Shown here: positions 8,672 to 30,769 of the stretch, in pieces
How the letters are laid out: the number at the start of each line of letters is the position of its first letter
How positions within the stretch are numbered: the first letter of the stretch is position 1
Source of the DNA: a virus
Taxonomy: Duplodnaviria; Heunggongvirae; Uroviricota; Caudoviricetes
Virus record (IMG/VR): IMGVR_UViG_2579778884_000012
DNA: 38,749 nucleotides
Direction: 5' to 3' (one strand)
Notes under the pieces: generated by a model
What the model saw: the letters and a program-made list of their open reading frames with translations, nothing else
What the model was told of the DNA's origin: nothing
Database searches by the model: none
Program-made: the position numbers and the translations under genes

Positions 8672-9781
8672 TTAATCTGAGTCCATTTTCCCAAACTCTG
8701 TCAGGCCGAAAACGGAGCTACCAGAAACATGAGCTTGTAAGCCCGCTTCCTGCATGTCACTTAATTCAACTTCTTGGCTATCCTCTAATCCGATAGAGAA
8801 CATGGGATAGGCCCAGTTCCAATTCGGATCAGGAACCAAACTATTATTCTCTATCTTGAAAAAGCTGACCATGAGATGATGCCTTCCCTGTATCGCCTCT
8901 TCATCATTGATGTTGACCAGTACACCAAAGTGCTTGTAGCCGGCTTGTCCATTCTCGAACATTTTTATCTTGGTGCCGTTTCTGAACATCCAAAAAGAAT
9001 GATTTCCAGTGGAATCAGCGACCTGCAAGTTATCTTCGTCAATTTCCCAATTAAGATATTGTTTGATATCAGACTTTGGTTTGAGTTTTTCGTCATTACT
9101 AAACCATTGTATTGCCGGAAGTGGAAGGTGAAGACCTTCCGGCTGGGGAGGCTGACCTGCAGCAATGGAATGCATGATCTCTGTCATTGATGGAAGCCCC
9201 ATCAAATGCCATACATCATGGATATCCTTTTTAAGTATAAGAAGCCCTTTGGATACACCATCCGCGTAAGTTGACTTTAAGCGGACTAGTATGTCCTTGT
9301 TACCATCTTTGTCGAGGTCTTCAATGTTTACTGAAGAAGCCACAACCTCGTCGTCCCCTGCGTCTGGGATGATTGCCCAATACCCAATATCGTAGAATCC
9401 AGGTCTGCCAACCACCTTATCTATCAAACTCTGTCCAGAGGGCTCGAAGACCATCAGGAAACGGCTAAGGGCACCATTTGTGCTCACAGTTCTTCCGTAG
9501 ACTACAACGGAGTTTGAGGTGCTTAGATCGAGAGACTCGCTAGCCACTGAGTCAAACGCCACTGAGTCCAAATGTGTGGCAAGCTGCTGCTGGATGCACT
9601 CCCGAGCCATTTCAACTAATTTTTCGCGAACATCAGCAGATCGTATTGGCTGTGAAGTGAAATGGAAAAGCCCTACTGTAGCCGCTATGCCTATTATTCC
9701 CGAAATAACGGTACTTAGAACCTGCTCCTTTACCACTTTCACAACTTTCATCAATAGCTTCTTCAACTTCACTTCAGGCAC
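8672..9781 (-). CDS. Hypothetical membrane-anchored protein (accessory cargo at the Z/fun position), up to 369 aa
   Basis: Long AT-rich ORF between FI and G. One N-terminal hydrophobic helix (VLSTVISGIIGIAATVGLFHF) followed by about 320 aa of soluble domain with no motif I recognise. The track start is a GTG directly after an in-frame TAG; the first ATG is 10 codons in (9751), so the true start is uncertain. Confidence 0.6.
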   Translation of the reverse strand: MPEVKLKKLLMKVVKVVKEQVLSTVISGIIGIAATVGLFHFTSQPIRSADVREKLVEMARECIQQQLATHLDSVAFDSVASESLDLSTSNSVVVYGRTVSTNGALSRFLMVFEPSGQSLIDKVVGRPGFYDIGYWAIIPDAGDDEVVASSVNIEDLDKDGNKDILVRLKSTYADGVSKGLLILKKDIHDVWHLMGLPSMTEIMHSIAAGQPPQPEGLHLPLPAIQWFSNDEKLKPKSDIKQYLNWEIDEDNLQVADSTGNHSFWMFRNGTKIKMFENGQAGYKHFGVLVNINDEEAIQGRHHLMVSFFKIENNSLVPDPNWNWAYPMFSIGLEDSQEVELSDMQEAGLQAHVSGSSVFGLTEFGKMDSD

Positions 9782-10658: not shown

Positions 10659-13276
10659 TATGCAAGCCTCACAATATAGTTAAATGCGATGTTTTTGACG
10701 GTGTTTTCGGTATTGCCAGTAGCATTTACGGTAATGGAATGCCCGTGTGAGCCAATAGCAACAGTGTGTGAATGTGCACCAATACCAACAGTATGGTTAT
10801 GTGCTCCAATGTCGACTGTATGTGCATGATTGCCTGATGAACTTGTAGTCGTAGCACCTTTATCACTTCGCGGAACACCATAATCTGCACCGCCTGATTG
10901 CACGCTCACAGCAAAACCGACGGTATGTGTATGATTGCCAGAAGTATTGGTTGATTTTGTGCCGTGGTTAAACGTACTGACTGTTTTTGTCCCGTAATCA
11001 AATGAACTGGTCGTTTTCGTTCCTAAGTCCGTATTTGACGCACTGGCGCTGTGAGTATGCGATTTAATCCCGTCCTGTTCCTGTGACAATACGGCACGCC
11101 CACTGGCGGGTTTGCCCTTGATTGTCCAGCCGCGCATATCTGGAATAACACCAGAAGGATAGGCAATAGCCAGTTTCGGATATGCTGCCTTATCAAACGT
11201 CTGTCCCTGCATGATTGCATAGCCTGCAGGCGGTGTATCTGATGGCCATGGCAGCGGAACACCTGGCGGAAATACTTCAATATTTGCCGAGCCGTCAAAT
11301 TTCACGCCGTTAATTGTCCTTGCCGTTTTCAGCTTTGTTGCTGTAGCCGCATTGCCGGACAGTTCGCCTGAAAGACCACCGCTGAATGTCTGTTTCGCCG
11401 CCCATGTCTGAGCTTCGTCGATAATTGGCACACGTCTTGTCGTGATCGTGCGGCTTCCCGGATTTCCTGAAATACGCACCATAAAAAAGCGGTAATTCGC
11501 TTTACTTACAGTGCTGCGCCATACATGCATTGAGCGCCCCGTACCGGAATCATCACTCGGACCAACTGCGATGTTTATCAGGTTGCCATCAATGACGCCC
11601 CAGTCCATACCGTCGGGAATGTTGGTCATGTTATCAAGCCGAACGGTTATCAGACTGCCCGGCACAAAGTCGTGGGTCTGCCAGTCCAGGCTGGTGAGCT
11701 TTGCCACTGCACCGCCGATACCCAGATTCAGGGGAAGTGAATACGAGGTGTAGACTTCCCGCCATTCGCTCCACGAGCTGCCGGTATAGACGCGCTCAAA
11801 CGTGCGACCTTTAAGGGTTGCACCTGTTCCGGCAGTTGTATAACGCTGCCATACGTTAACACCATCAAAGCGCCTCAACACTTCCAGAATACCGAGGACT
11901 GTCACGCCGTTTCCGTCCAGTATTGGACCGTTGGTCGCTTTACCTGTAACGCTGTAAATACCTGGTGAAGTCACATCATTCAAATCCCCGTCGTAATAAC
12001 GACTCTCTGACTGATGACCAACTCTTAACCACGGTTCCCACTGCGGATTTGATGCATCCCAGCTTGCCGCAAGGCAGCGGACGTACATATTTCCACGGCG
12101 AGTGGTATAACGTTGCGTTCTTCCATAATTCCCGCCTTCGAGGATCTCAAGCGTCCCCTGAGCAAAGCCGCCTTCCTCTGGATAATTGCGTTCATATGAA
12201 GCTATAGCCGAGCTACTGTTACGCCATAAACCAAGATGCTCGGCGGCTCCAAGCGTATTCAGGTCTATAGTCGTACTCAAAGGGCGGGTCGCTGATTGAG
12301 TGTGACGCCATACGCCCCACGGACCATCAGTGCCATTCCACTTATTGGCGAGTTTACGCATGTATACATTGCCGTCTCTTGTGGTAAAGCGTTGCGTACC
12401 TGCAAAATTGCCGGCAGCAAAAACCTCAAGCACACCGACAGCATTATCTTCCGGGAAATTTTTCTCCAGTGTTGCGTTGGTGGATGTTGCTTTAGACCAG
12501 ATACCTGAATAAGCCTTAACAGGACCAAACGTATTCAGATCAGCATCAACCGGCATTTCGCCATTGTTTTTCATAAACGTCAGGCTGGTAACGCCAACAT
12601 TGTCCAGAAAAGCTGATTTATCCTGGATATCTGCACCGTTCTGATTTTTCGCCAGACGTGAATTTGCGTTGTCATTCGCAGCCTTGACCGCTTTTGGCGT
12701 TGCCGCCAGTGACTCACTGGTGCTGTTTGTTGCACTGCTTAACTGAGTAAAACCTTTCTCTGTCAGCGTGGCGTCAGGATGGCGGCGGGACTGCTCATGC
12801 TCTGCGATTTTGTCATCGACGTAATCCTGCGTCGCCATCACTGTGCTGGCATCAATACTCAGCTCAACGGACGCCACGTTACTGAGAATAATAACCATGC
12901 GGCAGGTCTGCGCACGTCCGGAGCCTTCAGCCAGTTCTGGCTTATAGCTTTCTGCCATGTTGGATACCGCAATCAGTGTTCCGGCATCATCATACAGACC
13001 AAGCTCACGCATCCAGAAGCCGCCCACTTCTGGCGGAACAACCAGTTCAGCCACGATATAGTTTTTATTCTTGTTATCCACACTGACTTTATTCAGAGCG
13101 TGACGCCAGACTTCATGCACCAGTTTCGTCTGACCGGCATCCGGCACCGGCAATTGGCCATTACCGTCACCCACAGCCATTGCAGACAGGTTTACTTTTT
13201 TCCCGCCGGGAACAGTAGCGGCTGCCAGCTTCGCGGCTCCGGCAGTAGTGATAACGGTTTTAAATTTCGTGCTCAT
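10658..13276 (-). CDS. H: Tail fiber protein gpH, 872 aa, mosaic C-terminal half
   Basis: N-terminus [24 protein letters not shown]... recognised as the conserved gpH N-terminal domain. Middle holds three tandem ~55-aa modules; C-terminus holds His-x-His repeats ([37 protein letters not shown]). Confidence 0.88.
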
Positions 13277-13286
13277 TGTTTCTCAC

Positions 13287-13817
13287 TTATCCGGGATAAA
13301 CAGTAATAACATCACCATCACAGACCACACCGCCTGTATACAGATAGCCGGGAATGTCCTGGATAATGTTCAGACCGATAAGGTGGCGACTTGCGGGTTT
13401 GGCATCGGCAATCAGCCGTTCCATTTCCAGATACATCTCCTCCGTGATGCCGCTTTCCAGCACACCGATATCAAGGCGAAAGGTTCCGGGCGGGTCGTTT
13501 GTCTCCCACCATTCCTTTACGTTAATGAGATAGCCGAGCGGCTCCACCACACGCCGGATTGCGCCGATAGTGCCTTTATGACAGTGGATGAAATAGGCAT
13601 CGCGGATAACGGCGCGTTTTGTCGCTTCCGGCCACTTTTCATCCCACCTGTCGACCGAAAACGCCCACGCCAGCCACGGCAGCAGATTTGCCGGGCAGGT
13701 GTCCGGGTTCCACAGCTCACGAATACTGACCGGCGTTTTTTCAATTTCCGCACAGGCTTTTGCGGCGGCGACCTCAAGCGGTGATGAGCCGGTCGGCAGC
13801 AGGCGCGAATCACTCAT
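13287..13817 (-). CDS. I: Baseplate protein gpI, 176 aa
   Basis: 176 aa equals P2 gpI; between J and H. Confidence 0.88.
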   Translation of the reverse strand: MSDSRLLPTGSSPLEVAAAKACAEIEKTPVSIRELWNPDTCPANLLPWLAWAFSVDRWDEKWPEATKRAVIRDAYFIHCHKGTIGAIRRVVEPLGYLINVKEWWETNDPPGTFRLDIGVLESGITEEMYLEMERLIADAKPASRHLIGLNIIQDIPGYLYTGGVVCDGDVITVYPG

Positions 13818-14718
13818 CCGAGCCTCCGGTCACAACGCGGTATTCGGTACAGAAAGACGCCTGCGTATTGTTGAGCACGATGTCGGCCAGTGGTGCAGCC
13901 AGTTCGACACGCTGCACGCCTTCCACATGCAAAGCGGCATAAATGGCAGACAGACGGATGTCGCGCCCCAGCCGGTGCTGTGCCGTGATGTACGCTTCCA
14001 GTTTTTTCACGGCAGCAGCGCGGATGGGTTCGCTTTCGGGACCAGGGTAAAGGTAAAGCGTGGCGTTTATCTGGTATTCAACGATGGCGGCAGACTGCAC
14101 GGTCACGCGGTCGGCCACCGGCCTGACGTCCTCACCATTAAGGGCGTTACGCACCACCGCCAGCAGGTCTTCGGAAGCGACACCGTTATTTTCACGTGAC
14201 AGCACAGAGATGGTGACACAGGCCGGAGACGGACTGGTGACAGAGATATCCGCGACACGCCCGTCAGCACTGCGTCCATGATACTGATAGGCACCCACCG
14301 ACCCGGCGACGCTTAAACCTTCAAACGCCTGCTGAATACGCAGACGATAATCGGTGTCAGATTCCATCACTGCCGGTGTCGGCGGGATGGTCGAATCATC
14401 TGCCGGGGTGATAATCAGGCGCGTGGTGTTGTAATTGGCACCAATCACATCAAGGTCATTACCGGCGGCACAGGCCAGCATCACCGCCCGTGCGGCCTCA
14501 TTCACACGCTGACGCCAGATAAGCTCACGATAAGCATTTTCCTCCAGCAGTTTGACGAGAGGCTCAGATTCCAGTGTCAGGGTACGGGCGACCGCCTCCT
14601 GCTGGTCTTCCGGGTAAAGGGAAATCAGTGTCGCCTTGCGTTCGGCAAGAATGGTTTCAAAGTCCAGCTCCTCGACCACATCCGGTGCGGGTAGCTGGTT
14701 CAGGTCGATAATCGGCAT
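13810..14718 (-). CDS. J: Baseplate protein gpJ, 302 aa
   Basis: 302 aa equals P2 gpJ; overlaps the I start. Confidence 0.88.
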   Translation of the reverse strand: MPIIDLNQLPAPDVVEELDFETILAERKATLISLYPEDQQEAVARTLTLESEPLVKLLEENAYRELIWRQRVNEAARAVMLACAAGNDLDVIGANYNTTRLIITPADDSTIPPTPAVMESDTDYRLRIQQAFEGLSVAGSVGAYQYHGRSADGRVADISVTSPSPACVTISVLSRENNGVASEDLLAVVRNALNGEDVRPVADRVTVQSAAIVEYQINATLYLYPGPESEPIRAAAVKKLEAYITAQHRLGRDIRLSAIYAALHVEGVQRVELAAPLADIVLNNTQASFCTEYRVVTGGSDE

Positions 14719-14722
14719 GGTT

Positions 14723-15070
14723 TCAACTCACAGGGATGGTTAACGAAAGTGGCTGGCCGGTGTCGTTGTGCTGGCCGGTTAACGTGACCGTCATTCGCCC
14801 GTCAAAACTGCGCTCAGTGGTGACGGATGACAGGGTGACGCGGGGTTCCCATTTCAGCACCGCCATGTAACAGGCGACCTTAATCTGCAACTCAAGCGCC
14901 GGGGTCTGCGGCTGGTCAATCATTGACGCCAGCAACGAGCCGTAATCACGACGCATCACCCGTGAGCCGACCGGTGTGCGCAGGATATCGCCGATACTCT
15001 GGCTGATATGCTCAAGGTCAGTGACAGTCAGGCCATCACTGCGATTCATTCCGAGATAACGCGCTGTCAT
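14723..15070 (-). CDS. W: Baseplate wedge protein gpW (gp25-like), 115 aa
   Basis: 115 aa equals P2 gpW; between V and J. Confidence 0.88.
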   Translation of the reverse strand: MTARYLGMNRSDGLTVTDLEHISQSIGDILRTPVGSRVMRRDYGSLLASMIDQPQTPALELQIKVACYMAVLKWEPRVTLSSVTTERSFDGRMTVTLTGQHNDTGQPLSLTIPVS

Positions 15071-15702
15071 AAAGGACTCCCGGTTGTGCCGCCGCTGTCG
15101 CCGGGGTGTTTATGGGTATGCAGTACCTTACCGTTTGATGAGAGTTCACCGCCGGTGTGTTCAATGTTGCCGCGCATCGTCCCGCCCTTCTGCACTTCCA
15201 GCGTGCCGGTGATCAGCTTGTTTGTGCAGACCACCTCCGGCGTGTCCAGAGTGATGCGGGTTGATGCTTTCACCATGACCACCGGCACCGTGGCAGTAAC
15301 AGAATCAGAAGCCGTCACGCTGGCCGTTTTAATTCCGCTTACCGTAAGCGCACTGGTTTCGGGTTCATACTCAATCACCGCCCCGTCAGGGAAACGGATA
15401 TGCAGGGCATCCGCCGACGCAGACGGCGCAGGGTTATCGCCGGAATAAATCCCCGGCAGAACGAACGCCGTGTCGAGTTCACCGCCCACGGCCAGAATCA
15501 GCACCTGTTCCCCCACGGAAGGTGCCCACCATGTGCGCGAACGTCCGGCGCGATGGGTCAGCCACTGAAGCCAGTCGGTGCACATGCCGCCGGTCTGCAC
15601 ACGGCAGCGACCGGCGTTAAGGTCGGTTTCAACGATAATGCCGGTACGAATCATGTTGCGCAGTGCGCGCGCGAGTTCCTGAATATTTGCGAGAGTGTCC
15701 AT
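15067..15702 (-). CDS. V: Baseplate spike protein gpV, 211 aa
   Basis: Starting at the internal Met (MDTLANIQELARALRNMIRTGIIVETD...) gives 211 aa, equal to P2 gpV. The track ORF carries a 6-codon extension. Confidence 0.85.
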   Translation of the reverse strand: MDTLANIQELARALRNMIRTGIIVETDLNAGRCRVQTGGMCTDWLQWLTHRAGRSRTWWAPSVGEQVLILAVGGELDTAFVLPGIYSGDNPAPSASADALHIRFPDGAVIEYEPETSALTVSGIKTASVTASDSVTATVPVVMVKASTRITLDTPEVVCTNKLITGTLEVQKGGTMRGNIEHTGGELSSNGKVLHTHKHPGDSGGTTGSPL

Positions 15703-15785
15703 GCATGTGAGATTGCACAATATATAAAAGTTATGCTATCTGGATTCATTTGTAGAACCACCAGACAACATTCAAGGAGAGCGTA

Positions 15786-16562
15786 ATGGTCAGCTATAAT
15801 GTGACTAATGTGTGGGAGCTAATCGTTTTGTATCTTTTGGTCTTTGCAGTATTAGCATTTTTTAGCTTTGGTAAAAGTAACCTTATGAGGCTTATTGCAC
15901 ATTATTTCAAATTTGGATATTCAGACAAAAAATTAAAAAGACTGGACCGCGAGTGGCGCGACATTCAACTATTTAAAATACTTAACGGAATCAATGTATC
16001 AGGCATCGAAGATGTGAGAATGATACAGCAGGGGCTGATTGATGGAAAACTAAAAACATCGGATTTTTTCCTTACTCGCTTCTGGGGAGACATAACAGAA
16101 CCGCCATGCATCACAAAAACAATGAGTGCAGTCCTGGCCGGAATTCTTTATATTATCTTCGCATGTTGCATACACAACGAGCAATCTGCCATAGTAGAGG
16201 ATGCCATAGCCATACCATATAAAAATATGATGTACCATGTTTATAATGACAAGGTTCTTTTGTTCTCCGACAATAAAACAGATAAGTTCTATAAAGCTTT
16301 TAGCATTGCCGATTGCAAGAGACTGCAGAACACTTTTGTAACAGACACACTTCCTGCAATCGCCTGCAATAAGCTCTTACAGCTAAACGAGGAGGACTCC
16401 GAATGGTTAAGTCAGGAGATTAAAGATAATAACAGCCACAGAAAAACATTATTAATAATATCCCTAATCTATTTCATTTCAGGTGCGTATTTTCATGAAA
16501 GGAGATCACTCAATAACTTCCATCGAGATCGGGTAATAACATTTGAACAGATCGCTGAATAA
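15786..16562 (+). CDS. Hypothetical integral membrane protein (accessory gene at the orf30 position), 258 aa as it stands
   Basis: AT-rich ORF on the strand opposite the late genes, with a good RBS (AAGGAGAGCGTA ATG). Three predicted hydrophobic helices (about residues 12-29, 114-130, 230-245). Its last seven codons and stop lie inside the inferred IS terminal repeat. Confidence 0.65.
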   Translation: MVSYNVTNVWELIVLYLLVFAVLAFFSFGKSNLMRLIAHYFKFGYSDKKLKRLDREWRDIQLFKILNGINVSGIEDVRMIQQGLIDGKLKTSDFFLTRFWGDITEPPCITKTMSAVLAGILYIIFACCIHNEQSAIVEDAIAIPYKNMMYHVYNDKVLLFSDNKTDKFYKAFSIADCKRLQNTFVTDTLPAIACNKLLQLNEEDSEWLSQEIKDNNSHRKTLLIISLIYFISGAYFHERRSLNNFHRDRVITFEQIAE

Positions 16563-16676
16563 CATCGATGGAGATCACTTTTGACTCATTTTGTTATTCA
16601 GTGATCTCCATCAATGTTATTGGAACTTCACAGGTGTGTTGATCTGTATCTTTTGCCATTCCGGTAAAGGATACCT

Positions 16677-18218
16677 ATGCCAACAGTTCCAATTTCTATG
16701 AGAAAACTTAAAGAAATTCTTAGGCTTAAATACGGTGTTGGACTCAGCCATCGACAAATTGGTCGTAGTCTTGCAATCTCCCCTTCCGTTGTATCCAGAT
16801 ATGCTAATCGGGCGGCTCAACTTGGCATAAAGCAGTGGCCCTTACCTACAGGATGGGATGATACAAAACTAAAACATGCGTTCCTTCAGACCCAGGTTAA
16901 GATGAAGAAGCACTCTCTGCCTGACTGGGCTACAGTACACCGGGAACTGCGTAATAAATGCGTGACGCTGCAGCTACTCTGGGAAGAATACTGTGAGCGT
17001 AATCCAGGCGGTTTTTACAGCTATAACCATTACTGCCGGATGTACCGTGAATGGCTCAAAACCACTTCACCATCAATGCGTCAGGTACATAAAGCTGGCG
17101 AAAAACTTTTCGTTGATTACTGTGGACCTACCGTTGGCGTTACCGACCCTGAGACCGGAGAAATAAGAACTGCTCAGGTCATCGTAGCTGTTCTCGGGGC
17201 ATCAAGTTACACATGGGCAGAGGCCACCTGGTCTCAGCAGCTTGAAGACTGGGTGATGAGTCATGTTCGCTGCTTCCAGTGGTTGGGTGGCGTTCCTGAA
17301 CTTGTTGTTCCGGACAATCTGAAAAGCGCCACATCCAGGGCATGTAAGTATGATCCTGACGTTAACCCTACCTACCAGCAGATGCTTGAGCATTATAATG
17401 TCGCAGTTTTGCCTGCGCGGCCACGTAAACCGAAAGATAAAGCCAAAGCTGAAGTTGGCGTTCAGGTTGTTGAACGCTGGATCATGGCCCGAATCAGGCA
17501 TGAGATCTTCTACAGCCTTGCATCGCTTAATCAGCGCATTCGGGAGTTGCTGGAAAGACTGAATAACAAAATAATGCAGAAGTTGGGTTATTCACGTGCA
17601 GAACTCTTCATCCAGCTTGATAAACCCGCACTGAAGCCTCTTCCTGAAGCCAGTTACAGTTACACCCTGGTGAAGAAAGTCAGAGTTCATGCCGATTACC
17701 ACGTGGAAATCGACAAACATTACTACTCGGTTCCATGTTCGCTGTTAGGCCAGCAACTGGAAGCATGGATCTCCGGAGAACTGGTAAGACTCTTCAATCA
17801 GGGGCAGGAGGTTGCTGTGCACCCGCGCAAGCGTACTTATGGCTACAGTACCCGCAACGAGCACATGCCTGAAGCTCATCGACAGCATGCCACCTGGACG
17901 CCAGAGCGTCTTCTGGAATGGGCGGGGCACATAGGCAGTGAAACTCATAGTTATGTGCTTCATATACTGAACTCTCGTCCACATCCGGAACAAAGCTATC
18001 GCTTCTGCCTTGGACTCCTGAACCTTCATAAAAAATACAGTAAAGCCAGACTTAATGCAGCATGTGCAAGAGCTCTGAAAACAAAGGTATGGCGTCTGTC
18101 AGGTATTAAATCGATCCTGGAAAAAGGTCTGGATAAACAACCTGTTCAGGATCCAAAACCAGATCTGTTATCCACGATGGAACACGAAAACGTACGCGGC
18201 AGTGAGTATTACCACTGA
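16677..18218 (+). CDS. istA: IS21-family transposase IstA, 513 aa
   Basis: N-terminal helix-turn-helix (LSHRQIGRSLAISPSVVSRY), central DDE-type integrase-like region, followed 12 bp later by istB; typical IS21 layout. Confidence 0.85.
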   Translation: MPTVPISMRKLKEILRLKYGVGLSHRQIGRSLAISPSVVSRYANRAAQLGIKQWPLPTGWDDTKLKHAFLQTQVKMKKHSLPDWATVHRELRNKCVTLQLLWEEYCERNPGGFYSYNHYCRMYREWLKTTSPSMRQVHKAGEKLFVDYCGPTVGVTDPETGEIRTAQVIVAVLGASSYTWAEATWSQQLEDWVMSHVRCFQWLGGVPELVVPDNLKSATSRACKYDPDVNPTYQQMLEHYNVAVLPARPRKPKDKAKAEVGVQVVERWIMARIRHEIFYSLASLNQRIRELLERLNNKIMQKLGYSRAELFIQLDKPALKPLPEASYSYTLVKKVRVHADYHVEIDKHYYSVPCSLLGQQLEAWISGELVRLFNQGQEVAVHPRKRTYGYSTRNEHMPEAHRQHATWTPERLLEWAGHIGSETHSYVLHILNSRPHPEQSYRFCLGLLNLHKKYSKARLNAACARALKTKVWRLSGIKSILEKGLDKQPVQDPKPDLLSTMEHENVRGSEYYH

Positions 18219-18229
18219 TACGGGATCCA

Positions 18230-18979
18230 ATGATGAATCATCTTTACGAACAACTGACCGCACTTAAACTCACCGGCTTCCGTGATGCGCTTAAAAAGCA
18301 ACTTGCTCAACCGGGCACATACCAGGAGCTGGGCTTCGAAGAACGCCTGTCATTACTGACAGCAGAAGAACTAACCTGCCGTGAAAACAGGAAGGCAGAG
18401 CGTCTGATCAAACATGCACGGTTCAGACTTAATGCTGAGTTATCAAAGCTGGATTATCGTAACAATAGAGGGCTGGACAGGGCCCTCATCCGTTCACTCA
18501 GTCAGGGAAACTGGTTAACCCTGAAACAAAATATTTTACTGACCGGGGCCACCGGCAGCGGTAAAACGTTCCTGGCATGTGCACTTGGTCATAATGCCTG
18601 CCGACAGGGATACAAGGTCTACTATTATCGCCTTAAAGCGCTGATGGAACAGTGCTATCAGGGGCATGCTGATGGAAGATACAGCAAACTTTTGACCAGG
18701 CTGAATAATAGCGATCTGCTGCTTCTGGATGACTGGGGGCTGGAACCTCTCTCATCAGAACAGCGTAGCGACCTGCTGGAAATAGTGGATCTGATGTACC
18801 AACGAGGCTCAATCATCGTAGTGAGCCAGTTGCCGGTGGAAAACTGGTACAAAATGATCGGAGACTCCACACATGCGGATGCCATCCTAGATCGACTGGT
18901 TCATGGCAGTATCAAGATCGAACTTAAAGGAGAATCAATGCGGAAAATACAATCTCCGTTGACCGAAGGAGATCAGTGA
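18230..18979 (+). CDS. istB: IS21-family ATP-binding helper protein IstB, 249 aa
   Basis: Walker A motif GATGSGKT and Walker B LLLLDDWG; DnaC-like AAA+ fold typical of IstB. Confidence 0.88.
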   Translation: MMNHLYEQLTALKLTGFRDALKKQLAQPGTYQELGFEERLSLLTAEELTCRENRKAERLIKHARFRLNAELSKLDYRNNRGLDRALIRSLSQGNWLTLKQNILLTGATGSGKTFLACALGHNACRQGYKVYYYRLKALMEQCYQGHADGRYSKLLTRLNNSDLLLLDDWGLEPLSSEQRSDLLEIVDLMYQRGSIIVVSQLPVENWYKMIGDSTHADAILDRLVHGSIKIELKGESMRKIQSPLTEGDQ

Positions 18980-19163
18980 AGGTAATTTAAAAACGGTTCT
19001 GTGAAAGTGACACGAACCGATCTCCATCGATGTTACTCACCGATCTCCTTCACGGTAATACGCATCAGGTCTATTTATATTCCTGTCATACACAAAATTC
19101 CTTTACGCCAATAAGAAGGTTTTAGAATACAAAGCATCAAATAAAAACCACTCATAAACCTCT

Positions 19164-19198
19164 AAACATTGAGCGACCAGCACGGCCGCTCAATGTTT
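19164..19198 (-). terminator. Terminator-like hairpin downstream of S (end of the O-S late operon)
   Basis: Twelve-bp inverted repeat AAACATTGAGCG-N11-CGCTCAATGTTT, 31 nt after the S stop, followed on the minus strand by a moderately T-rich stretch. Confidence 0.5.
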
Positions 19199-19228
19199 AA
19201 TTGCGCATCAGCCTCTGCCTGGATAAAA

Positions 19229-19681
19229 CTAACGCTCAAGGTGAGCCAGGATAATCTCTTCAATCATCTGCACATCCTCACCGGTAAAGCCGAGCAGAGG
19301 ACGCGCCGGATAATCAGTTTTCTTACCGTCTTTCCGGGTTTCTTCCGACAGACCGAACTGATGCACACTGGCAATTTTCGGCGACTTCCCGCCGTAAAAC
19401 TCCATTGATGCCTGTTCCGGGCTGGCGCGGATATGCAAAAAACGACTGGTGATAAGTTTCGCAAACATTTTTCGCTTAACACGACCGGTCTTTTTTCTGG
19501 CGCTCTGCTGCTGGCGTGGCACGTAGGGTGTGCCGTCCGGGGCTTTCTGTGCCATCACCCGACGCTGCTGACTCTGACGCAGACGTTTCGCCAGTTCGGC
19601 GCTCAGTCGCCGACGCCCTGACGGTGACAGCGATTCAGTCAGTCCGGTCAGCCGGTCTTCAAAACGCTTAAACTCATTCAT
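19229..19681 (-). CDS. S: Tail completion protein gpS, 150 aa
   Basis: 150 aa equals P2 gpS; follows R. Confidence 0.88.
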   Translation of the reverse strand: MNEFKRFEDRLTGLTESLSPSGRRRLSAELAKRLRQSQQRRVMAQKAPDGTPYVPRQQQSARKKTGRVKRKMFAKLITSRFLHIRASPEQASMEFYGGKSPKIASVHQFGLSEETRKDGKKTDYPARPLLGFTGEDVQMIEEIILAHLER

Positions 19682-20141
19682 CCCACTTGCTCACCAGTTC
19701 GCCATTGATATACAGCTCCATCGGGCGGGTAACCGGCTCCGGCGGCGGAGGTTCCGGGATATTCTTCACATGTAGCGCGCCTTCCACCTCACTGACCAGC
19801 GTGCGCTCGGTCAGCATCAGGCTGATGCTGATATCAAAGCTGCTGTCATTGTTGATGTCTGCATAAAACGTGAAGCCCTTTTTCTGGCCTTCGTCGGTGG
19901 TCATGATGTCTGGCTGATTTTCCCGCAGCCACGCCAGCACCGGCACAATGAGCAGGTCAAAATCACCGGTAAAGTCGGTCACAATCACATTGAGCGTGTA
20001 ACGCTTTTCGAATGACATAGACGTCGCCAGTGTGGAGGCAATACTCCCGTTATCCACGAATATCCGCAGCATCTCGGGACTGGTTTTCAGCACCGTGACG
20101 GCGTCAGTCAGCGCCCTGCGCAGGCTGTCGGGTTTGAGCAT
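19674..20141 (-). CDS. R: Tail completion protein gpR, 155 aa
   Basis: 155 aa equals P2 gpR. Confidence 0.88.
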   Translation of the reverse strand: MLKPDSLRRALTDAVTVLKTSPEMLRIFVDNGSIASTLATSMSFEKRYTLNVIVTDFTGDFDLLIVPVLAWLRENQPDIMTTDEGQKKGFTFYADINNDSSFDISISLMLTERTLVSEVEGALHVKNIPEPPPPEPVTRPMELYINGELVSKWDE

Positions 20142-20394
20142 CGTTTTCGTCCTGACAGTGTTTAATCATTTTTACCTGGCTGGCACAGCGTGCCAGCGCG
20201 TTCTCAAGCTGCCGGATATCAGCACTTAAATCGCCGTTCGTCTGCGGGTCACTGCCCGGCATCGGGCAAAGGCTCACTTTCGGGCAGGCGTTGGCGACAA
20301 TCACTGGCGTCGGTGCAGGCCGGACGCTGGTGCAACCGGCGCACAACATCAGGCAGGTCAGCGCCGTACCAGCGGCGAAAATCTTCGTTTTCAT
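20104..20394 (-). CDS. lysC: LysC, outer-membrane spanin lipoprotein (Rz1-like), 96 aa, embedded in lysB in another frame
   Basis: Internal Met gives MKTKIFAAGTALTCLMLCAGC with a lipobox (LCAGC); Pro-rich; nested in the lysB 3' region as in P2. The track ORF 20104..20511 has a 39-codon extension. Confidence 0.75.
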   Translation of the reverse strand: MKTKIFAAGTALTCLMLCAGCTSVRPAPTPVIVANACPKVSLCPMPGSDPQTNGDLSADIRQLENALARCASQVKMIKHCQDENDAQTRQPAQGAD

Positions 20395-20674
20395 TGAGTA
20401 ACCTCGTGATGGTTTTCTCGCGCTGTGCTTCACGCTTCGCGGCGTTCTCCAGTTCCTGACGCAGTACCACCTGCGCCAGCTCGTTTTTGTCTGCTCTGGT
20501 GAGGGCAACATGAAGCTGATTTTTCAGCATGGTGATAGTCGTCTGCTGCCCGCTGGCGACGTTGTTCGCCCTGTCCAGCGAGGCGCGCAGGCTGGCATTT
20601 TTATGTTTCACCAGAAACAGCCCCGCCACCGCCAGCGATAACAACACAACCAGTACAATCATCAGCTTTGACAT
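20249..20674 (-). CDS. lysB: LysB, inner-membrane spanin (Rz-like), 141 aa
   Basis: 141 aa equals P2 LysB; N-terminal transmembrane helix then coiled coil. Confidence 0.85.
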   Translation of the reverse strand: MSKLMIVLVVLLSLAVAGLFLVKHKNASLRASLDRANNVASGQQTTITMLKNQLHVALTRADKNELAQVVLRQELENAAKREAQREKTITRLLNENEDFRRWYGADLPDVVRRLHQRPACTDASDCRQRLPESEPLPDAGQ

Positions 20675-21087
20675 GGTTCCCGCCCCTCAAAACGCTGACG
20701 GCAGGCCGTACGTATCAGCCGGAAGAACACCGACGCCACGAGGTAAATCAGCGCAGTAAAAATCCACCCGGCAGCGACCAGCGAGATAAACGTCGCCACC
20801 ATCACCACCAGAGCCGCCGCCCGTCTGCGCCACGGCACCGGCTGCAAAAACAGCGACGTGACAATCTTCACGGCCAGCGATTCCGGCGGCAGCTCCCGCC
20901 CGTAGCGTTCCAGCACATACTCCGTGGCATACACGCCGACACCACCGGCAACCACACAGATAACCGTCGCCAGAATCGCCCAGGTGGCGACAAAACTGAC
21001 GGCCACGCTCTGCGGGTAAATCAGGGACAGTGCCAGCATCAGCGCCAGCGACACGTTCAGCATCAGTGAAAGGGATAATTTCTTCAT
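20662..21087 (-). CDS. lysA: LysA lysis-timing membrane protein, 141 aa
   Basis: 141 aa equals P2 LysA; multi-pass hydrophobic protein between K and lysB. Confidence 0.85.
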   Translation of the reverse strand: MKKLSLSLMLNVSLALMLALSLIYPQSVAVSFVATWAILATVICVVAGGVGVYATEYVLERYGRELPPESLAVKIVTSLFLQPVPWRRRAAALVVMVATFISLVAAGWIFTALIYLVASVFFRLIRTACRQRFEGREPCQS

Positions 21088-21101
21088 GGTGTTTACTCCG
21101 T

Positions 21102-21599
21102 TTAAGCCGGTACGCCGCCGGCGGTACGCCAGACGGTGACCAGTTTTTCCAGTGAATGCTCACGCTGACCGTAACCGGCACCCGGCAGGGACGCCCAGAT
21201 ATTGCGACAGCGTGAAATGGCGCGCTCAATGCGTCCCGCCCGGATGTCATCCAGTGCACCGCGTTCGCGGATCAACTGAATGGCGAGCCTGTCCTGTGAC
21301 AACGGACTGAAATCCGGCAGGGCAAGCTGTTTGCGGTAGTGCGGCCAGAACAGGTAAAGCTGCTGATAGCGACCGGAGGCCGTGGATTTTTCACCGCGAC
21401 GGTTAAACACCTTCGCCGGTCGGCCATGCGCGAACGGGTGGTCACTGTAGTCGGTGAAAATTTCCGGCTTTCCGTCCAGTCCGGTGACTATCACGTCATA
21501 GCCCCGGTTTTTCGTCAGCGGATGATTCGCCGTCCCTTCGGACACGGCCAGCATGTCGAGAAAGGCGGCGATATTCTGATGCGTGTTAATTACCGGCAT
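21102..21599 (-). CDS. K: Endolysin gpK (lysozyme), 165 aa
   Basis: 165 aa equals P2 gpK; MPVINTHQNIAAFLDMLAVSEGTANHP... lambda R-like lysozyme. Confidence 0.9.
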   Translation of the reverse strand: MPVINTHQNIAAFLDMLAVSEGTANHPLTKNRGYDVIVTGLDGKPEIFTDYSDHPFAHGRPAKVFNRRGEKSTASGRYQQLYLFWPHYRKQLALPDFSPLSQDRLAIQLIRERGALDDIRAGRIERAISRCRNIWASLPGAGYGQREHSLEKLVTVWRTAGGVPA

Positions 21600-21880
21600 T
21601 ACGGTTTCCCCCTGCCCTTAAAGCGGCGCTGAATGGCAATCTCAATCACCTGATAACCGGCGATACCCAGCATGGAACCGATGCCGCACACCGCAGGCAG
21701 TGACAGGTCAGGAAACTGCACCAGAACAACACCGGCAACCATCGAGACAAAACCGCCGAGCAACATGCGCCCGATAAACAGACGCGGGGTGATGGGTTCA
21801 CCACCGGCAAGCACCTTGCCGACAACAATCAGCACCCCAATCATGAAAAGCGACAGGACGCTTTTTTCTTCTGCTGTCAT
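21599..21880 (-). CDS. Y: Holin gpY, 93 aa
   Basis: 93 aa equals P2 gpY; transmembrane helices; directly upstream of K. Confidence 0.88.
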   Translation of the reverse strand: MTAEEKSVLSLFMIGVLIVVGKVLAGGEPITPRLFIGRMLLGGFVSMVAGVVLVQFPDLSLPAVCGIGSMLGIAGYQVIEIAIQRRFKGRGKP

Positions 21881-21883
21881 GCG

Positions 21884-22087
21884 TTACTCCCACAGATTGA
21901 CAGTTTCAGCCACGGGCGCGGTCTGAACGTCGGGCAGTTCGACGGCGGTGCCGTGTGGCAGCACCGCACCCAGTTCAGCCAGTCCCGGATTTGCGGCGAG
22001 CACGGTCTCAACCACGCCCTCAGTGCGCCCGTAATACCGGACACAAATGGCGTCGAGCGTGTCACCCTGTAGCGCAAAGGTCTTCAT
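21884..22087 (-). CDS. X: Tail protein gpX (LysM-like), 67 aa
   Basis: Internal Met gives MKTFALQGDTLDAICVRYYGRTEGVVETVLAANPGLAELGAVLPHGTAVELPDVQTAPVAETVNLWE, 67 aa as in P2 gpX. Track ORF extended by 23 codons. Confidence 0.88.
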   Translation of the reverse strand: MKTFALQGDTLDAICVRYYGRTEGVVETVLAANPGLAELGAVLPHGTAVELPDVQTAPVAETVNLWE

Positions 22088-22596
22088 CAGATTTGACTCA
22101 CGATGCAGCGCGGCTTGTCCTGGATACGCGCCACCGCCCAGCGCATATCCCGCCACAGTTCATCAATGGTGCTGTCAATGCTGTCGGCCTTCTTGTCGCC
22201 TTTCGCACTGGCATCCACGCCGCGATAACGCTCATAAAGCGACGCGGTCGCCATCGCACACACGGCGCGCTCGTAGTAAAAAACTTTGATGCTTTCACCG
22301 TCGATGTCGTCCGCCGGAACGTCCGCCAGACGCGTAAAACCGGCGGCAATTTTCTGTTCGCGGTACTCGTACAGCTCCGCATTCGTCTCCGCCATGCCTG
22401 ACTTGATGGCCTCACGCAGACGGGCGGGGGCGACGGTCTGCTCAAGGCGCATACGTTCCCGGACGCGCTTCGGGTCGATATCGGGAAAAAAGAACGTGTT
22501 TTTAATCACCGGCTCGTCGCCTGCCGGTTGCGGGATGACCACCGTACCCTCACCGGACACGGGAGCCTCCTTTCGCGGAATAATCAGCGTCATCAT
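22087..22596 (-). CDS. L: Head completion protein gpL, 169 aa
   Basis: Internal Met gives MMTLIIPRKEAPVSGEGTVVIPQPAGDEPVIKNTFFFPDID..., 169 aa as in P2 gpL. Confidence 0.88.
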   Translation of the reverse strand: MMTLIIPRKEAPVSGEGTVVIPQPAGDEPVIKNTFFFPDIDPKRVRERMRLEQTVAPARLREAIKSGMAETNAELYEYREQKIAAGFTRLADVPADDIDGESIKVFYYERAVCAMATASLYERYRGVDASAKGDKKADSIDSTIDELWRDMRWAVARIQDKPRCIVSQI

Positions 22597-22695
22597 GACT
22601 ACCTCTGAAAAGTCGGGCGGTGGACGCCGGTGCAGTGTCAGGTGATTCACCCTCACTGACCGGCGTGCCGCCCTGGCGCGGGGCGCATTCGGTTG

Positions 22696-23439
22696 TTAAC
22701 TGGCTTTCTTTTTCGGGCGTCCACGTTTTGCCGGTGTCACGCTCCGGGTCTTACGCGGGGCGCGGGTGACCGCTTTGGGCTGCGGCTCCGGCTTCGGTTT
22801 CAGCTCCCGCTCCAGTCGTTCAATCTCTTTTTTGACGCCTGCCTGACAGTCGAGCTGTGTCGCACGTTGCAGGTGAGCCAGCGCACCGGCGGCATCACCA
22901 GCGTCACGCAGAAACAGACCGGTGATTTTGTGCAGCTTTGCGCGCACTTCATCAGGCATGTCAGCCGTGGCGGTCAGTTCAAGGGTCTCCGTCAGCAGGC
23001 GGATATCCACAGATTCACCGGCAGCGTGGGCACGCATGGCCGCGAGTGCGACCTCCTCGGTGAACATGTACGGCGGGGTGCGGCGGTGTTTACCCGGCAT
23101 GGTCAGACCGTACTTCAGGGCATAACGGGCAATCTCCAGCGCACCGGCAATATCGCCGGTATCCAGACGCCACAGCATGACCGTCATCAGAATGTCATCC
23201 TGTGCACCTTTGCCCTGCTCCAGCACACCGTTCACCCACGGCAACCAGAACGGCAGCAGTTCGCGCTTTTTCGCGGCCTTAAGCTCTTTTGAATAAATCG
23301 CTTTCAGTGTGCGCTGGTCTGCGGCCAGCTTGACCAGCATCTGCTCATAGACAGTTGCATGTCGCAGCGGGGCGGCTTCCCGCTGCGCGGTCATCGCTGC
23401 CGAGACCCGCATCATGTGGCGCTGTGCGGGACTCGTCAT
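22696..23439 (-). CDS. M: Terminase small (endonuclease) subunit gpM, 247 aa
   Basis: 247 aa equals P2 gpM; basic C-terminal tail. Confidence 0.88.
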   Translation of the reverse strand: MTSPAQRHMMRVSAAMTAQREAAPLRHATVYEQMLVKLAADQRTLKAIYSKELKAAKKRELLPFWLPWVNGVLEQGKGAQDDILMTVMLWRLDTGDIAGALEIARYALKYGLTMPGKHRRTPPYMFTEEVALAAMRAHAAGESVDIRLLTETLELTATADMPDEVRAKLHKITGLFLRDAGDAAGALAHLQRATQLDCQAGVKKEIERLERELKPKPEPQPKAVTRAPRKTRSVTPAKRGRPKKKAS

Positions 23440-23442
23440 CGG

Positions 23443-24516
23443 TTACGCTCCCGGCTCTGCGGTCGCCTTAGCCGGTGTGGAGAAATCACCGACCTTGATT
23501 TTTTCCACCAGACAACCGGCGGCGTAGTCTTCCACCACGTAATCAATGTTCATTGACTCGTAGTTCTCCACGCGGTCGAGTTTCGGGTTTTCCACAATCA
23601 CGCGGCGATGGCTGTCATCCATGTAGTAGATAGACAGGTTTTCCAGCTTCGTGATGAGCATCGCATCCGCCGGGAAGTACGGGACGCGTACCGCTGGCAG
23701 GTTACCGATGCGTTTCTGGCTGATGATGACGTCAGCAGCCAGCATTTCGCTGTTATCCTGCTCCCTGTTGACGATGGGGAAATACTTGTCCGCCAGTAGC
23801 TGACGCCCCACAATCACCACAAGGTCAGGGTCTTCCTGATACCACGGCTCAATCAGGTTGTTGGTCGCATCCATCACCAGTGCATCGAGGCTGGCATAAT
23901 CACCGCCCTTACCCACGCGGATGACCTCAGAGGTGGTGCTGCCTTCCTCGTCAGTGACCTTGCTCATCACGCGAGCCGGGGCTTCATTGCGGTATTTCTG
24001 CAGCCAGCCGACCGCCACATCCTGCAGCATCGGATTGCTGCTGCGGTCAGAGGTTTCGGCACGCTTCACGCCGTTAAAACCGGCCATGATGAAATCAAGG
24101 GACTGGCGTTTGATAATGGCGTTACGGATACGGAGCTGGAAATCCTGATAACGCGCCCACAGGTCCAGCGTTTTGTAGCGGATATAAAAATCGAAGTTAA
24201 TCTGGTCGCATTCGTACTTGTTTGACGCCAGCTTCGAGAAGTCCTTCGGCTGACGCTCGGTGCCACCGGCGGTGTCGGTGGTGCTGGCGATGGAGCCGGT
24301 GACACCAATACCAATTTTTTCCCCTTTCATTTCGCTGACCGGCACAATGTTGATGCGGGTCAGAAAGTCAGAGGACTCCTGCATGGTGTTCATCAGGGTC
24401 TGGGTGACCGACGGTTCAACAGTGAATTTTTTCGACACATCACCGGCATCAATGCCGTTCAGTTCGGCAACACGGGACAGGTAAGCATTAAATTTAAAGC
24501 GGGTTTCCTGGCGCAT
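23443..24516 (-). CDS. N: Major capsid protein gpN, 357 aa
   Basis: 357 aa equals P2 gpN. Confidence 0.9.
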   Translation of the reverse strand: MRQETRFKFNAYLSRVAELNGIDAGDVSKKFTVEPSVTQTLMNTMQESSDFLTRINIVPVSEMKGEKIGIGVTGSIASTTDTAGGTERQPKDFSKLASNKYECDQINFDFYIRYKTLDLWARYQDFQLRIRNAIIKRQSLDFIMAGFNGVKRAETSDRSSNPMLQDVAVGWLQKYRNEAPARVMSKVTDEEGSTTSEVIRVGKGGDYASLDALVMDATNNLIEPWYQEDPDLVVIVGRQLLADKYFPIVNREQDNSEMLAADVIISQKRIGNLPAVRVPYFPADAMLITKLENLSIYYMDDSHRRVIVENPKLDRVENYESMNIDYVVEDYAAGCLVEKIKVGDFSTPAKATAEPGA

Positions 24517-30088: not shown

Positions 30089-30769
30089 CTACATCTTTAT
30101 TGCATATTTATTAAAAGACGCCCAGTTCAATAAAAAAACATTATTCATATACCATTCAATATAATTTTTATTTTTAGATTGACTGTCAAGTAGCACACAA
30201 ACATCAACCTGTTTATCAATCAATTTTGCAATATAAACCACAAACTCAACACTCGAATATCTCTTTGTGCCTAGCAAATATAATATTTCATCTGACAAAT
30301 AATTAGACTCATGTGAAAAGACATTATCATTTAACAAAATCAACCCGCCAATCGAGTCATTTAAATCCAAAACATCCTTTGTTGCATTTATTTGCTTATT
30401 AGCTTCCTTAACTATCTTTGTTTTAATATTTTCATAAGCAAAGTTCATTATATCATTTCTAAATCGCTTTGAGTCTGGGTGTCTTTTTATCAACTCTTCT
30501 AAATGAATAGCACCATGCCAGTTTTTTGCAAGCCAACTATCAGTTTTAACCAACTCATTCAGTTTATCATTGACATTCTTGACCCTGTCAGAAAAAAGAC
30601 TTTTCATCTCCAAAATTATCTTTTTATTATCAATAAGATAATCTGCCATCTTGCGATTCTGACCATCCTTCATCCGGAACTTATGATGAATATCATCAAT
30701 AGAAATCCCTTTTTCATGCTCAACAATGAATCTCTTAACATTGTTTTCTAATTCGCTGTATTGTTTCAT
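30089..30769 (-). CDS. Hypothetical protein (accessory cargo), 226 aa, probably co-transcribed with the upstream DUF2158-like gene
   Basis: AT-rich Lys/Asn-rich ORF; start 27 bp after the small upstream gene's stop, with a GGGGGA RBS; no motif I recognise. Confidence 0.6.
   Translation of the reverse strand: MKQYSELENNVKRFIVEHEKGISIDDIHHKFRMKDGQNRKMADYLIDNKKIILEMKSLFSDRVKNVNDKLNELVKTDSWLAKNWHGAIHLEELIKRHPDSKRFRNDIMNFAYENIKTKIVKEANKQINATKDVLDLNDSIGGLILLNDNVFSHESNYLSDEILYLLGTKRYSSVEFVVYIAKLIDKQVDVCVLLDSQSKNKNYIEWYMNNVFLLNWASFNKYAIKM

What the first reader, a model, noticed from the sequence alone, without database searches (positions are those of the whole stretch)
15786..16562. Three-helix membrane protein at the orf30 position on the opposite strand, with its C-terminus rewritten by the IS21 insertion
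Between V and S sits an AT-rich 258-aa ORF with three predicted transmembrane helices. Its last seven codons (TFEQIAE) and stop lie inside the inferred IS terminal repeat. If the 7-bp GGTAATA flank match is the target duplication, joining the flanks restores an ORF ending ...RVIRIRSIYIPVIHKIPLRQ (about 268 aa). The gene is therefore probably an IS-truncated variant.
Basis: partly seen in the sequence, partly recalled or inferred. Interest (0 to 1): 0.6.

Follow-up and report, generated by a model that had tools for sequence, protein, structure and literature searches.

The report
IS-interrupted copy of phage P2 orf30

Summary
The 258-aa ORF at 15786-16562 (+) is real. It is not just "at the orf30 position": it is P2 orf30 itself. 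Its intact allele is 81% identical to P2 Orf30 and matches PHROG 2407 (function unknown).

An ISEc12 element (IS21 family, 2,581 bp, 16484-19064) has inserted after codon 233 and made a 5-bp target duplication, TCAGG. An empty site in a 100%-identical ST131 prophage and five independent ISEc12 copies fix these ends.

- The GGTAATA "duplication" lies inside the IS.
- 25 codons plus the stop, not 7, are IS-derived.
- The native protein is 261 aa and ends ...SGLFIFLSYTKFLYANKKVLEYKASNKNHS, not the 268-aa reconstruction.

The insertion halves the third membrane helix and removes two of the most conserved family residues (N247, K254). The allele is probably inactive.

Beyond the finding:
- Orf30 belongs to a wider three-helix family distantly linked to Pfam DUF6216.
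- Relatives only 20-37% identical occupy the same V-S slot in other P2-like prophages.
- In other phages that slot is empty or carries defence-candidate genes.

This points to a prophage-expressed envelope or anti-phage role, but that is inference. No fold or sequence match gives a mechanism.

The parts
15703..15785 (.). V-orf30 intergenic region. It is untouched by the IS. In P2 it holds the Ogr activator site and the start of the pV late promoter.
   Evidence: The P2 record places the 'activator binding site; activation of pV promoter' just upstream of the orf30 ATG. AAGGAG lies 7 nt before the ATG at 15786. No sigma-70 match of at least 9/12 was found for orf30 itself.
15786..16483 (+). Native 5' part of orf30: codons 1-232 and the first two bases of codon 233. 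It encodes TM1, the cytoplasmic domain, TM2, the periplasmic domain and the first half of TM3.
   Evidence: The first 233 aa are identical to intact WP_001599798.1. The intact allele is 81% identical to P2 Orf30 and hits PHROG 2407 at E=2.6e-137.
15786..16562 (+). Chimeric 258-aa ORF as it now stands: 233 native codons, then 25 IS-encoded codons, then a TAA at IS positions 77-79.
16479..16483 (.). Left copy of the 5-bp target-site duplication, TCAGG.
   Evidence: The empty site in L001 carries TCAGG once. Five other ISEc12 copies have 5-bp duplications.
16484..19064 (+). ISEc12 (IS21 family), 2,581 bp, with ends TGCGTATT...AATACGCA.
   Evidence: RefSeq annotates near-identical copies as 'IS21-like element ISEc12 family'. 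Length and ends are identical in 5 independent copies.
16677..18218 (+). istA transposase, 513 aa.
   Evidence: annotation of identical copies.
18230..18979 (+). istB helper ATPase, 249 aa.
   Evidence: annotation of identical copies.
19065..19069 (.). Right copy of the target-site duplication, TCAGG.
19065..19157 (+). Displaced 3' remnant of orf30. It encodes SGLFIFLSYTKFLYANKKVLEYKASNKNHS followed by a stop.
   Evidence: Translated. It is 100% identical to the intact ST131 allele.
19163..19199 (.). Hairpin between the orf30 remnant and gpS. It is the counterpart of the putative rho-independent terminator of the P2 O operon and is still adjacent to S.
   Evidence: Inverted repeat I10: 16-nt arms, 94% complementary. 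The P2 record annotates a terminator at the same place.

Best explanation
Shown: the ORF is the P2-type accessory gene orf30, carried by a P2-like prophage essentially identical to one common in E. coli ST131. A single ISEc12 element (IS21 family) has transposed into codon 233 and duplicated TCAGG. Translation now runs 25 codons into the IS left end before a stop. This replaces the native last 28 residues, which are the second half of the third membrane helix and the basic cytoplasmic tail. Both flanks are still identical to the intact allele, so the insertion is recent.

Inferred: the product is probably a loss-of-function or hypomorphic allele. It loses N247 and K254, two of the roughly dozen best-conserved positions in the family, and TM3 is shortened to 16 hydrophobic residues. 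The late operons should be unaffected, because the pV activator site and the O-operon terminator remain next to V and S.

Intact Orf30 (inferred, about 0.4): an inner-membrane protein made from the prophage, independently of the late operons. Predicted layout is N-terminus out, a conserved 80-residue helical cytoplasmic domain, a 90-residue periplasmic beta/alpha domain with a conserved cysteine pair, and a cytoplasmic tail. It most likely acts at the envelope of the lysogen against competing phages, by superinfection exclusion or defence, like the other P2 accessory genes old, tin and fun.
For: Identity and structure of the locus:
- The empty-site alignment shows TCAGG once in the intact prophage and twice in the window.
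- Window 10721-16492 and 19065-24076 are 99.97% and 100% identical to the ST131 strain 4/0 prophage.
- Five independent ISEc12 copies are all 2,581 bp with 5-bp duplications.
- The intact allele is 261 aa, 81% identical to P2 Orf30, and hits PHROG 2407 over its full length.

Loss of function:
- N247 and K254 rank among the lowest-entropy columns of a 26-sequence family alignment.
- The TM3 hydropathy peak is lost.

Real coding gene:
- Length and three-helix architecture are conserved in relatives down to about 20% identity.
- dN/dS against P2 is 0.47.
- The AlphaFold model with the 26-sequence alignment has pLDDT 81.9 and pTM 0.67.

Topology:
- The positive-inside count is 15 K+R in loop 1 and 5 in the tail.
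- C177 and C194 in loop 2 are invariant or near-invariant.

Functional inference:
- The gene is on the opposite strand, between the pV activator site and the O-operon terminator, and is annotated nonessential. It is AT-rich.
- Distant relatives sit in the same V-S slot in at least four other P2-like prophage lineages.
- Among 78 close P2-like contigs the slot is empty in 55, holds orf30 in 17, and holds other AT-rich cargo in 6. That cargo includes RelA_SpoT/PDC-S33, AAA/PDC-S59 and AAA+TIR proteins.
Against: - No experiment or paper available to me assigns Orf30 any phenotype. The literature lists it as 'unknown' (PMC3091744, PMC2771037).
- Orf30 has no hit in PADLOC, Pfam or NCBIfam.
- No sigma-70-like promoter was detected upstream, so expression in the lysogen is assumed, not shown.
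- The remaining 16-residue hydrophobic stretch followed by ERR could still span the membrane, so residual function cannot be excluded.
- The guilt-by-location evidence is weak. Only 6 non-orf30 cargos were seen, and the PDC families are candidates, not validated systems.
- Two Enterobacter homologues lie in the chromosome away from phage genes.
Confidence: 0.85

Rival explanations
1. One reading: the IS begins near 16539 and duplicates the 7-bp GGTAATA, only the last 7 codons are foreign, and the native protein is about 268 aa ending ...RVIRIRSIYIPVIHKIPLRQ.
For: GGTAATA does occur at 16532 and 19054, and joining there gives an open 268-codon frame.
Against: Both GGTAATA copies are internal to ISEc12 (IS positions 49-55 and 2571-2577). 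The empty site and five other copies put the ends at 16484 and 19064 with a 5-bp duplication. All intact homologues, P2 included, are 261 aa and end ...KASNKNHS.
Confidence: 0.01
2. The chimeric 258-aa protein is still functional or has altered function. TM1, both soluble domains and TM2 are intact. The shortened TM3 (TLLIISLIYFISGAYF) followed by HERR may still insert, giving a working protein with a new cytoplasmic tail.
For: 233 of 261 residues are retained unchanged. The 16-residue remnant has a mean Kyte-Doolittle value of 1.97 and is followed by positive charges on the predicted cytoplasmic side. The most conserved domain, cytoplasmic loop 29-108, is untouched.
Against: The tail residues N247 and K254 are among the most conserved in the family, and the tail length is conserved. 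None of 5,426 complete E. coli genomes carries this junction, so there is no sign that the allele has spread or been selected.
Confidence: 0.15
3. Orf30 is not an anti-phage function. It could be a lysogenic-conversion factor that changes host envelope physiology or fitness, or a dispensable helper for the phage's own cycle (lysis timing, DNA entry, tail assembly). Its fixed place in the late region would then reflect a phage-intrinsic role.
For: The family is unusually faithful to one slot between tail genes, across lineages that have diverged to about 20% identity. That fits a long-term resident better than a shuffled defence cassette. The cytoplasmic domain is the best-conserved part, which suggests a conserved cellular or phage partner. 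There is no PADLOC hit.
Against: The P2 record calls it nonessential. 55 of 78 closely related phages lack it entirely. It is on the opposite strand to the late operons, it is AT-rich, and it is also found away from phage genes in Enterobacter.
Confidence: 0.3
4. The ORF is not expressed. On this view it is a silent AT-rich leftover without function, so the IS insertion has no consequence.
For: No consensus promoter was found. No transcript or protein evidence was available to me. AT-rich horizontally acquired genes are often H-NS-silenced (abstract of bioRxiv 10.64898/2026.09.05.749240, seen).
Against: There is a strong Shine-Dalgarno sequence. The 261-codon frame is preserved at 89% nucleotide identity with dN/dS of 0.47. 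Architecture and key residues are conserved in 20-37%-identical relatives, and the AlphaFold model is confident.
Confidence: 0.05

Closest known systems
Bacteriophage P2 Orf30 (AAD03281.1; PHROG 2407)
   Same: Same gene: 81% amino-acid identity for the intact allele, the same 261-aa length, and the same position and opposite-strand orientation between S and V. It has the same AT-rich composition and lies between the pV activator site and the O-operon terminator.
   Different: The window copy is interrupted after codon 233 by ISEc12 and ends in 25 IS-encoded residues. The native last 28 codons are displaced 2.6 kb downstream.
ISEc12 (IS21 family: istA transposase and istB helper ATPase)
   Same: At least 99.8% identical to annotated ISEc12 copies. 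It is 2,581 bp with TG...CA ends, repeated IstA-type terminal motifs and a 5-bp target duplication.
   Different: Nothing structural. This particular insertion site in orf30 is absent from 5,426 complete E. coli genomes. Other copies hit gpS, the tail sheath, traG and other genes.
Pfam DUF6216 (PF19723), uncharacterised integral membrane proteins
   Same: A distant Orf30 relative (P0024, Sodalis, also in a P2-like V-S slot) matches DUF6216 over its full length above the gathering score (28.9 against 27.3). Four others match weakly. Length (about 250-270 aa) and three-helix layout are similar.
   Different: Orf30 itself and the window ORF do not hit the model at E of 1 or better, so the link is only transitive. 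DUF6216 has no known function, so the relation gives no mechanism.
Prophage-encoded inner-membrane superinfection-exclusion proteins (T4 Imm, P22 SieA, HK97 gp15) and the P2 exclusion genes old, tin and fun(Z)
   Same: It is a small accessory gene of a temperate phage that is dispensable for growth, AT-rich and horizontally acquired, and it is predicted to sit in the inner membrane with a periplasmic domain. Like old, tin and fun, it occupies one of the three classical variable P2 loci (PMC3091744). This comparison rests on my own knowledge of those systems.
   Different: There is no sequence or fold similarity to any of them, and no exclusion phenotype has been reported. This is a working analogy, not a membership claim.

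Membership tests
P2 Orf30 / PHROG 2407 | Full-length sequence similarity to P2 Orf30 | tested here: met
   The intact allele is 81% identical to AF063097 Orf30 over residues 1-261 and hits PHROG 2407 at E=2.6e-137 over 1-261/261. Residues 1-233 of the window ORF are identical to that allele.
P2 Orf30 / PHROG 2407 | Location between gpS and gpV on the strand opposite the late operons | tested here: met
P2 Orf30 / PHROG 2407 | Complete 261-aa product with third TM helix and ...YANKKV.EYK.SNKNHS tail | tested here: not met
   The window ORF is 258 aa and diverges after G233 into IS-encoded sequence. The gene is a disrupted member.
ISEc12 / IS21 family | Adjacent istA (transposase) and istB (helper ATPase) genes | tested here: met
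   ORFs of 513 and 249 aa. RefSeq annotation of copies at least 99.8% identical.
ISEc12 / IS21 family | Defined ends (TG...CA), imperfect terminal inverted repeats with repeated subterminal motifs, constant length | tested here: met
   Inverted and direct repeats at both ends (I1, I2, I21, D1). 2,581 bp in the window and in each of five independent copies.
ISEc12 / IS21 family | Short direct target duplication flanking the element, verified against an empty site | tested here: met
   TCAGG occurs twice in the window and once in the empty ST131 site. The five other copies also have 5-bp duplications.
Pfam DUF6216 (PF19723) | Match to the family HMM at or above the gathering score | tested here: not met
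   Orf30 and the window ORF give no hit at E of 1 or better. Only the distant relative P0024 passes, at 28.9 against 27.3 bits. The relation is transitive, through the Orf30 profile hitting P0024 at E=2.8e-11.
Known anti-phage defence systems (PADLOC-DB v2) | HMM match to a protein of a known or candidate system | tested here: not met
   Orf30 has no hit. Among 26 family members there was only one spurious HamA hit, at E=0.0067.
Superinfection-exclusion membrane proteins (Imm, SieA, gp15 type) | Inner-membrane localisation with an extracytoplasmic domain | tested here: inconclusive
   Prediction only: hydropathy and the positive-inside rule, a conserved Cys pair in loop 2, and the AlphaFold secondary structure. 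No experimental topology.
Superinfection-exclusion membrane proteins (Imm, SieA, gp15 type) | Blocks DNA entry or plating of superinfecting phage when expressed alone | not testable with these tools
   Needs plating and DNA-injection assays. No report was found in the searchable literature.

The most novel reading that the evidence does not exclude
The Orf30/DUF6216-like family is the ancestral, fast-diverging occupant of a further P2 accessory hotspot, the V-S slot. It would be a new single-gene, inner-membrane anti-phage or superinfection-exclusion function, with a conserved cytoplasmic domain coupled to a disulfide-bonded periplasmic sensor. The window would then carry a natural knock-out allele useful as an isogenic control.
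Probability: 0.35. Interest if true: 0.45.

Novelty: already known. Interest (0 to 1): 0.2.

Why it matters
As it stands this matters little. An IS element has knocked the end off a dispensable prophage gene, which is routine in E. coli genomes.

There are two modest points of value:
- It is a worked example of how terminal repeats inside IS21-family ends can mimic a target duplication and lead to a wrong gene reconstruction. An empty-site comparison resolves it at once.
- Orf30 is one of the last P2 genes without a function. This analysis gives it a testable outline: a predicted topology, conserved residues (G68, G87, C177, C194, I212, N247, K254), a wider family linked to DUF6216, and a slot shared with defence-candidate cargo. 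It also identifies a natural truncated allele next to an otherwise identical intact one in ST131.

Tried and rejected
- Direct family scans of Orf30 against Pfam, NCBIfam and PADLOC found nothing.
- The 90%-cluster protein search found only 4 close clusters. Repeating it with the family profile or with P0024 added almost nothing, because of the word-index limit.
- The PDB sequence profile search found nothing meaningful.
- Literature: no paper in the library gives orf30 a function. The Christie and Calendar P2 review was not held. The one preprint that mentions DUF6216 together with 'P2-like prophage' (bioRxiv 10.64898/2026.09.05.749240) could not be opened, so I could only count its terms.
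- I first considered an alternative IS left end at 16496 or 16544 (TGAA... repeats) and dropped it once the empty site was aligned.
- The promoter scan found no convincing orf30 promoter.

Full report
**1. What is at the coordinates**

- Searches confirm an ATG-initiated ORF of 258 codons at 15786-16562 on the + strand. AAGGAG lies 7 nt upstream of the ATG.
- The ORF lies between gpV (15067-15702, -) and gpS (19229-19681, -) of a P2-like prophage. The whole window is that prophage plus a little host DNA. H, I, J, W, V, S, R, the lysis genes, capsid genes, gpA and int are all recognisable.
- The ORF has 37% GC, against 54% for the adjacent late genes.
- It is followed by istA (513 aa) and istB (249 aa).

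**2. Where the IS really starts and ends**

- RefSeq annotates near-identical copies as ISEc12, an IS21-family element.
- A prophage in ST131 strain 4/0 (L001) matches the window at 99.97% across 10721-16492 and at 100% across 19065-24076. It has no IS.
- Aligning the two window junctions with this empty site shows TCAGG once in the empty site and twice in the window, at 16479-16483 and 19065-19069. The element is therefore 16484-19064, 2,581 bp, with ends TGCGTATT...AATACGCA.
- Five independent ISEc12 copies (in gpS twice, a helicase gene, between the tail tube and tail sheath genes, and traG) are all exactly 2,581 bp with the same ends. Their 5-bp duplications are CGGGT, GCGGA, CAGGT, CCAGG and CCAGG.
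They belong to the repeated subterminal motifs typical of IS21-family ends.

**3. Consequence for the protein**

- The intact gene encodes 261 aa. The window product shares residues 1-233.
- It then reads AYFHERRSLNNFHRDRVITFEQIAE from the IS left end. The stop is at IS positions 77-79.
- The native LFIFLSYTKFLYANKKVLEYKASNKNHS and its stop are displaced to 19065-19157 and are unchanged.
- Hydropathy finds three strong segments in the intact protein, around 9-27, 112-130 and 221-239. The chimera has only two. The third is cut to 16 hydrophobic residues.
- Neither flank has diverged from the intact allele, so the insertion is recent.
- None of 5,426 complete E. coli genomes has this junction.
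- The pV activator site and the O-operon terminator, as annotated in P2, remain attached to V and S. I therefore infer that the late operons are intact.
- With the IS the prophage is about 36.6 kb between putative att cores. Whether that still packages was not tested.

**4. What the gene is**

- It is P2 orf30. The intact allele is 81% identical to P2 Orf30 over all 261 residues and 77-96% identical to copies in other Peduovirus and Yersinia P2-like phages.
- It matches PHROG 2407 ('unknown function') end to end.
- The P2 record calls Orf30 'nonessential'.
- Papers list its function as unknown. They describe the orf30 site as one of three loci where P2-like phages carry horizontally acquired genes, the others being the TO region (old/tin) and Z/fun (PMC3091744, PMC2771037, PMC6823313).
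- Pfam, NCBIfam and PADLOC give nothing for it directly.

**5. A wider family**

- A profile search of 1.84 billion representatives found 42 proteins. About 22 are full-length (250-270 aa) and only 18-33% identical.
- They share the same layout and a small set of conserved positions. G68, G87, C194 and I212 are invariant. G29, Q61, D76, C177 and K254 are near-invariant, and N247 is close behind.
- The cytoplasmic loop (29-108) is the best-conserved region. The membrane helices are the most variable.
- One distant member (P0024, Sodalis) matches Pfam DUF6216 over its full length, above the gathering score. Four others match weakly. Orf30 is therefore transitively related to DUF6216, but it does not itself pass the model.
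- With this 26-sequence alignment AlphaFold gives a confident model (pLDDT 81.9, pTM 0.67):
  - TM1;
  - three short cytoplasmic helices;
  - TM2;
  - a four-stranded sheet plus two helices;
  - one long helix forming TM3 and the tail.
- The positive-inside rule and the conserved cysteine pair place loop 1 and the tail in the cytoplasm and loop 2 in the periplasm. This is inference.

**6. Genomic context of relatives**

- Distant members occupy the same slot, between V and S on the opposite strand, in other P2-like prophages:
  - an Enterobacter MAG (L005);
  - metagenomic contigs carrying P0049 (L010-L012);
  - IMG/VR prophages carrying P0025 (L014-L017);
  - the Sodalis prophage carrying the DUF6216-positive P0024 (L024).
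- Exceptions are:
  - two Enterobacter chromosomal copies with no phage genes nearby;
  - one copy beside a gpR remnant;
  - two contigs where the homologue follows R while the V-S slot holds a PDC-S59 ATPase.
- Among 78 IMG/VR contigs whose gpV is at least 95% identical to the window's, the slot varies:
  - 55 have an empty slot (69 bp);
  - 17 hold an orf30-family gene;
  - 6 hold other AT-rich cargo. This includes a RelA_SpoT protein (PADLOC candidate PDC-S33), an AAA ATPase (PDC-S59), an AAA+TIR fusion, a Cys-rich nuclease-like protein (in two contigs) and an unknown.
- The slot thus behaves as a small accessory hotspot whose other cargo looks like defence genes.

**7. Most likely mechanism**

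- The structural story is established: orf30 disrupted by ISEc12, a 5-bp duplication, and a 25-codon chimeric tail.
- That the allele is inactive is a reasonable inference, from the loss of half of TM3 and of N247 and K254. Residual function cannot be excluded.
- For the intact protein, the best-supported reading is a prophage-expressed inner-membrane protein acting at the envelope against competing phages, by analogy with old, tin and fun. The grounds are:
  - strand and position;
  - base composition;
  - dispensability;
  - the predicted membrane topology;
  - the slot it shares with defence candidates.
- I put this at about 0.4. The main rival, at about 0.3, is a non-defence role in host physiology or in the phage's own cycle. 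The family's long fidelity to one slot between tail genes, and its conserved cytoplasmic domain, favour that rival.
- A preprint I could not open (bioRxiv 10.64898/2026.09.05.749240) contains 'DUF6216' once and 'P2-like prophage' four times, in a study of H-NS-silenced immunity. It may already bear on this question.

**8. Verdict**

- The object is a known gene of unknown function hit by a known IS.
- Novelty is 'already known' and interest is low (0.2).
- The family-level findings (a distant DUF6216 link, slot conservation across lineages, slot polymorphism with defence-like cargo) are a modest addition. They make Orf30 function directly testable.

Noticed in passing
IMG/VR loci L025-L104 (V-S slot); L018:1743-3068: In 78 P2-like contigs with near-identical gpV, the V-S slot is empty (55), holds orf30 (17), or holds other AT-rich cargo (6). 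That cargo includes RelA_SpoT/PDC-S33, AAA/PDC-S59, AAA+TIR, a Cys-rich nuclease-like protein and an unknown. The orf30 site therefore behaves as a small defence-type hotspot, beside the well-studied old/tin and Z/fun ones.
   Followed up: partly
window 16484-19064; L002, L003, L020-L022: The six ISEc12 insertions examined have G/C-rich 5-bp duplications, and four contain CAGG (TCAGG, CAGGT, CCAGG twice; also CGGGT and GCGGA). This suggests a target preference. In the E. coli set, ISEc12 repeatedly hits P2-like prophage genes or their intergenic regions (gpS twice, the FII-FI tail tube/sheath interval, psu of a P4-like element).
   Followed up: partly
window 8672-9781 (-): A 369-aa ORF at the Z/fun position, between the tail fibre assembly gene G and the sheath gene FI. 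It has no Pfam or PADLOC hit and is an uncharacterised hotspot cargo.
   Followed up: partly
window 28828-29769 (+) and 30089-30769 (-): Two ORFs (313 and 226 aa) at the old/tin (TO) hotspot, between portal gene Q and gpA. Neither has a Pfam or PADLOC hit, so they are candidate unknown accessory or defence genes.
   Followed up: partly
window 33397-34398 (-): A 333-aa PAPS-reductase-domain protein directly downstream of gpA (Pfam PF01507, E=1.3e-31). It has PADLOC similarity to SspD, BrxP and DndC-type proteins.
   Followed up: partly
window 1582-1596 and 38136-38150; window 1-1362: A 15-bp direct repeat, CATTGACCACATCGA, lies near both ends of the prophage and may be the att core. It gives a 36.6-kb prophage with the IS and about 34.0 kb without. 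The flanking host gene at 1-1362 is a U32-family peptidase.
   Followed up: no
L005:8915-9736 (-): In an Enterobacter P2-like prophage the V-S slot holds, beside the Orf30 homologue, a second 273-aa ORF of unknown function with an N-terminal hydrophobic segment.
   Followed up: no
L004:7956-8747 and L006: Enterobacter chromosomes carry an Orf30 homologue (263 aa, 37% identity) outside any recognisable prophage. It lies between an ECF-sigma/DsbD-like cluster and a chemoreceptor gene, so the gene can persist on its own.
   Followed up: partly
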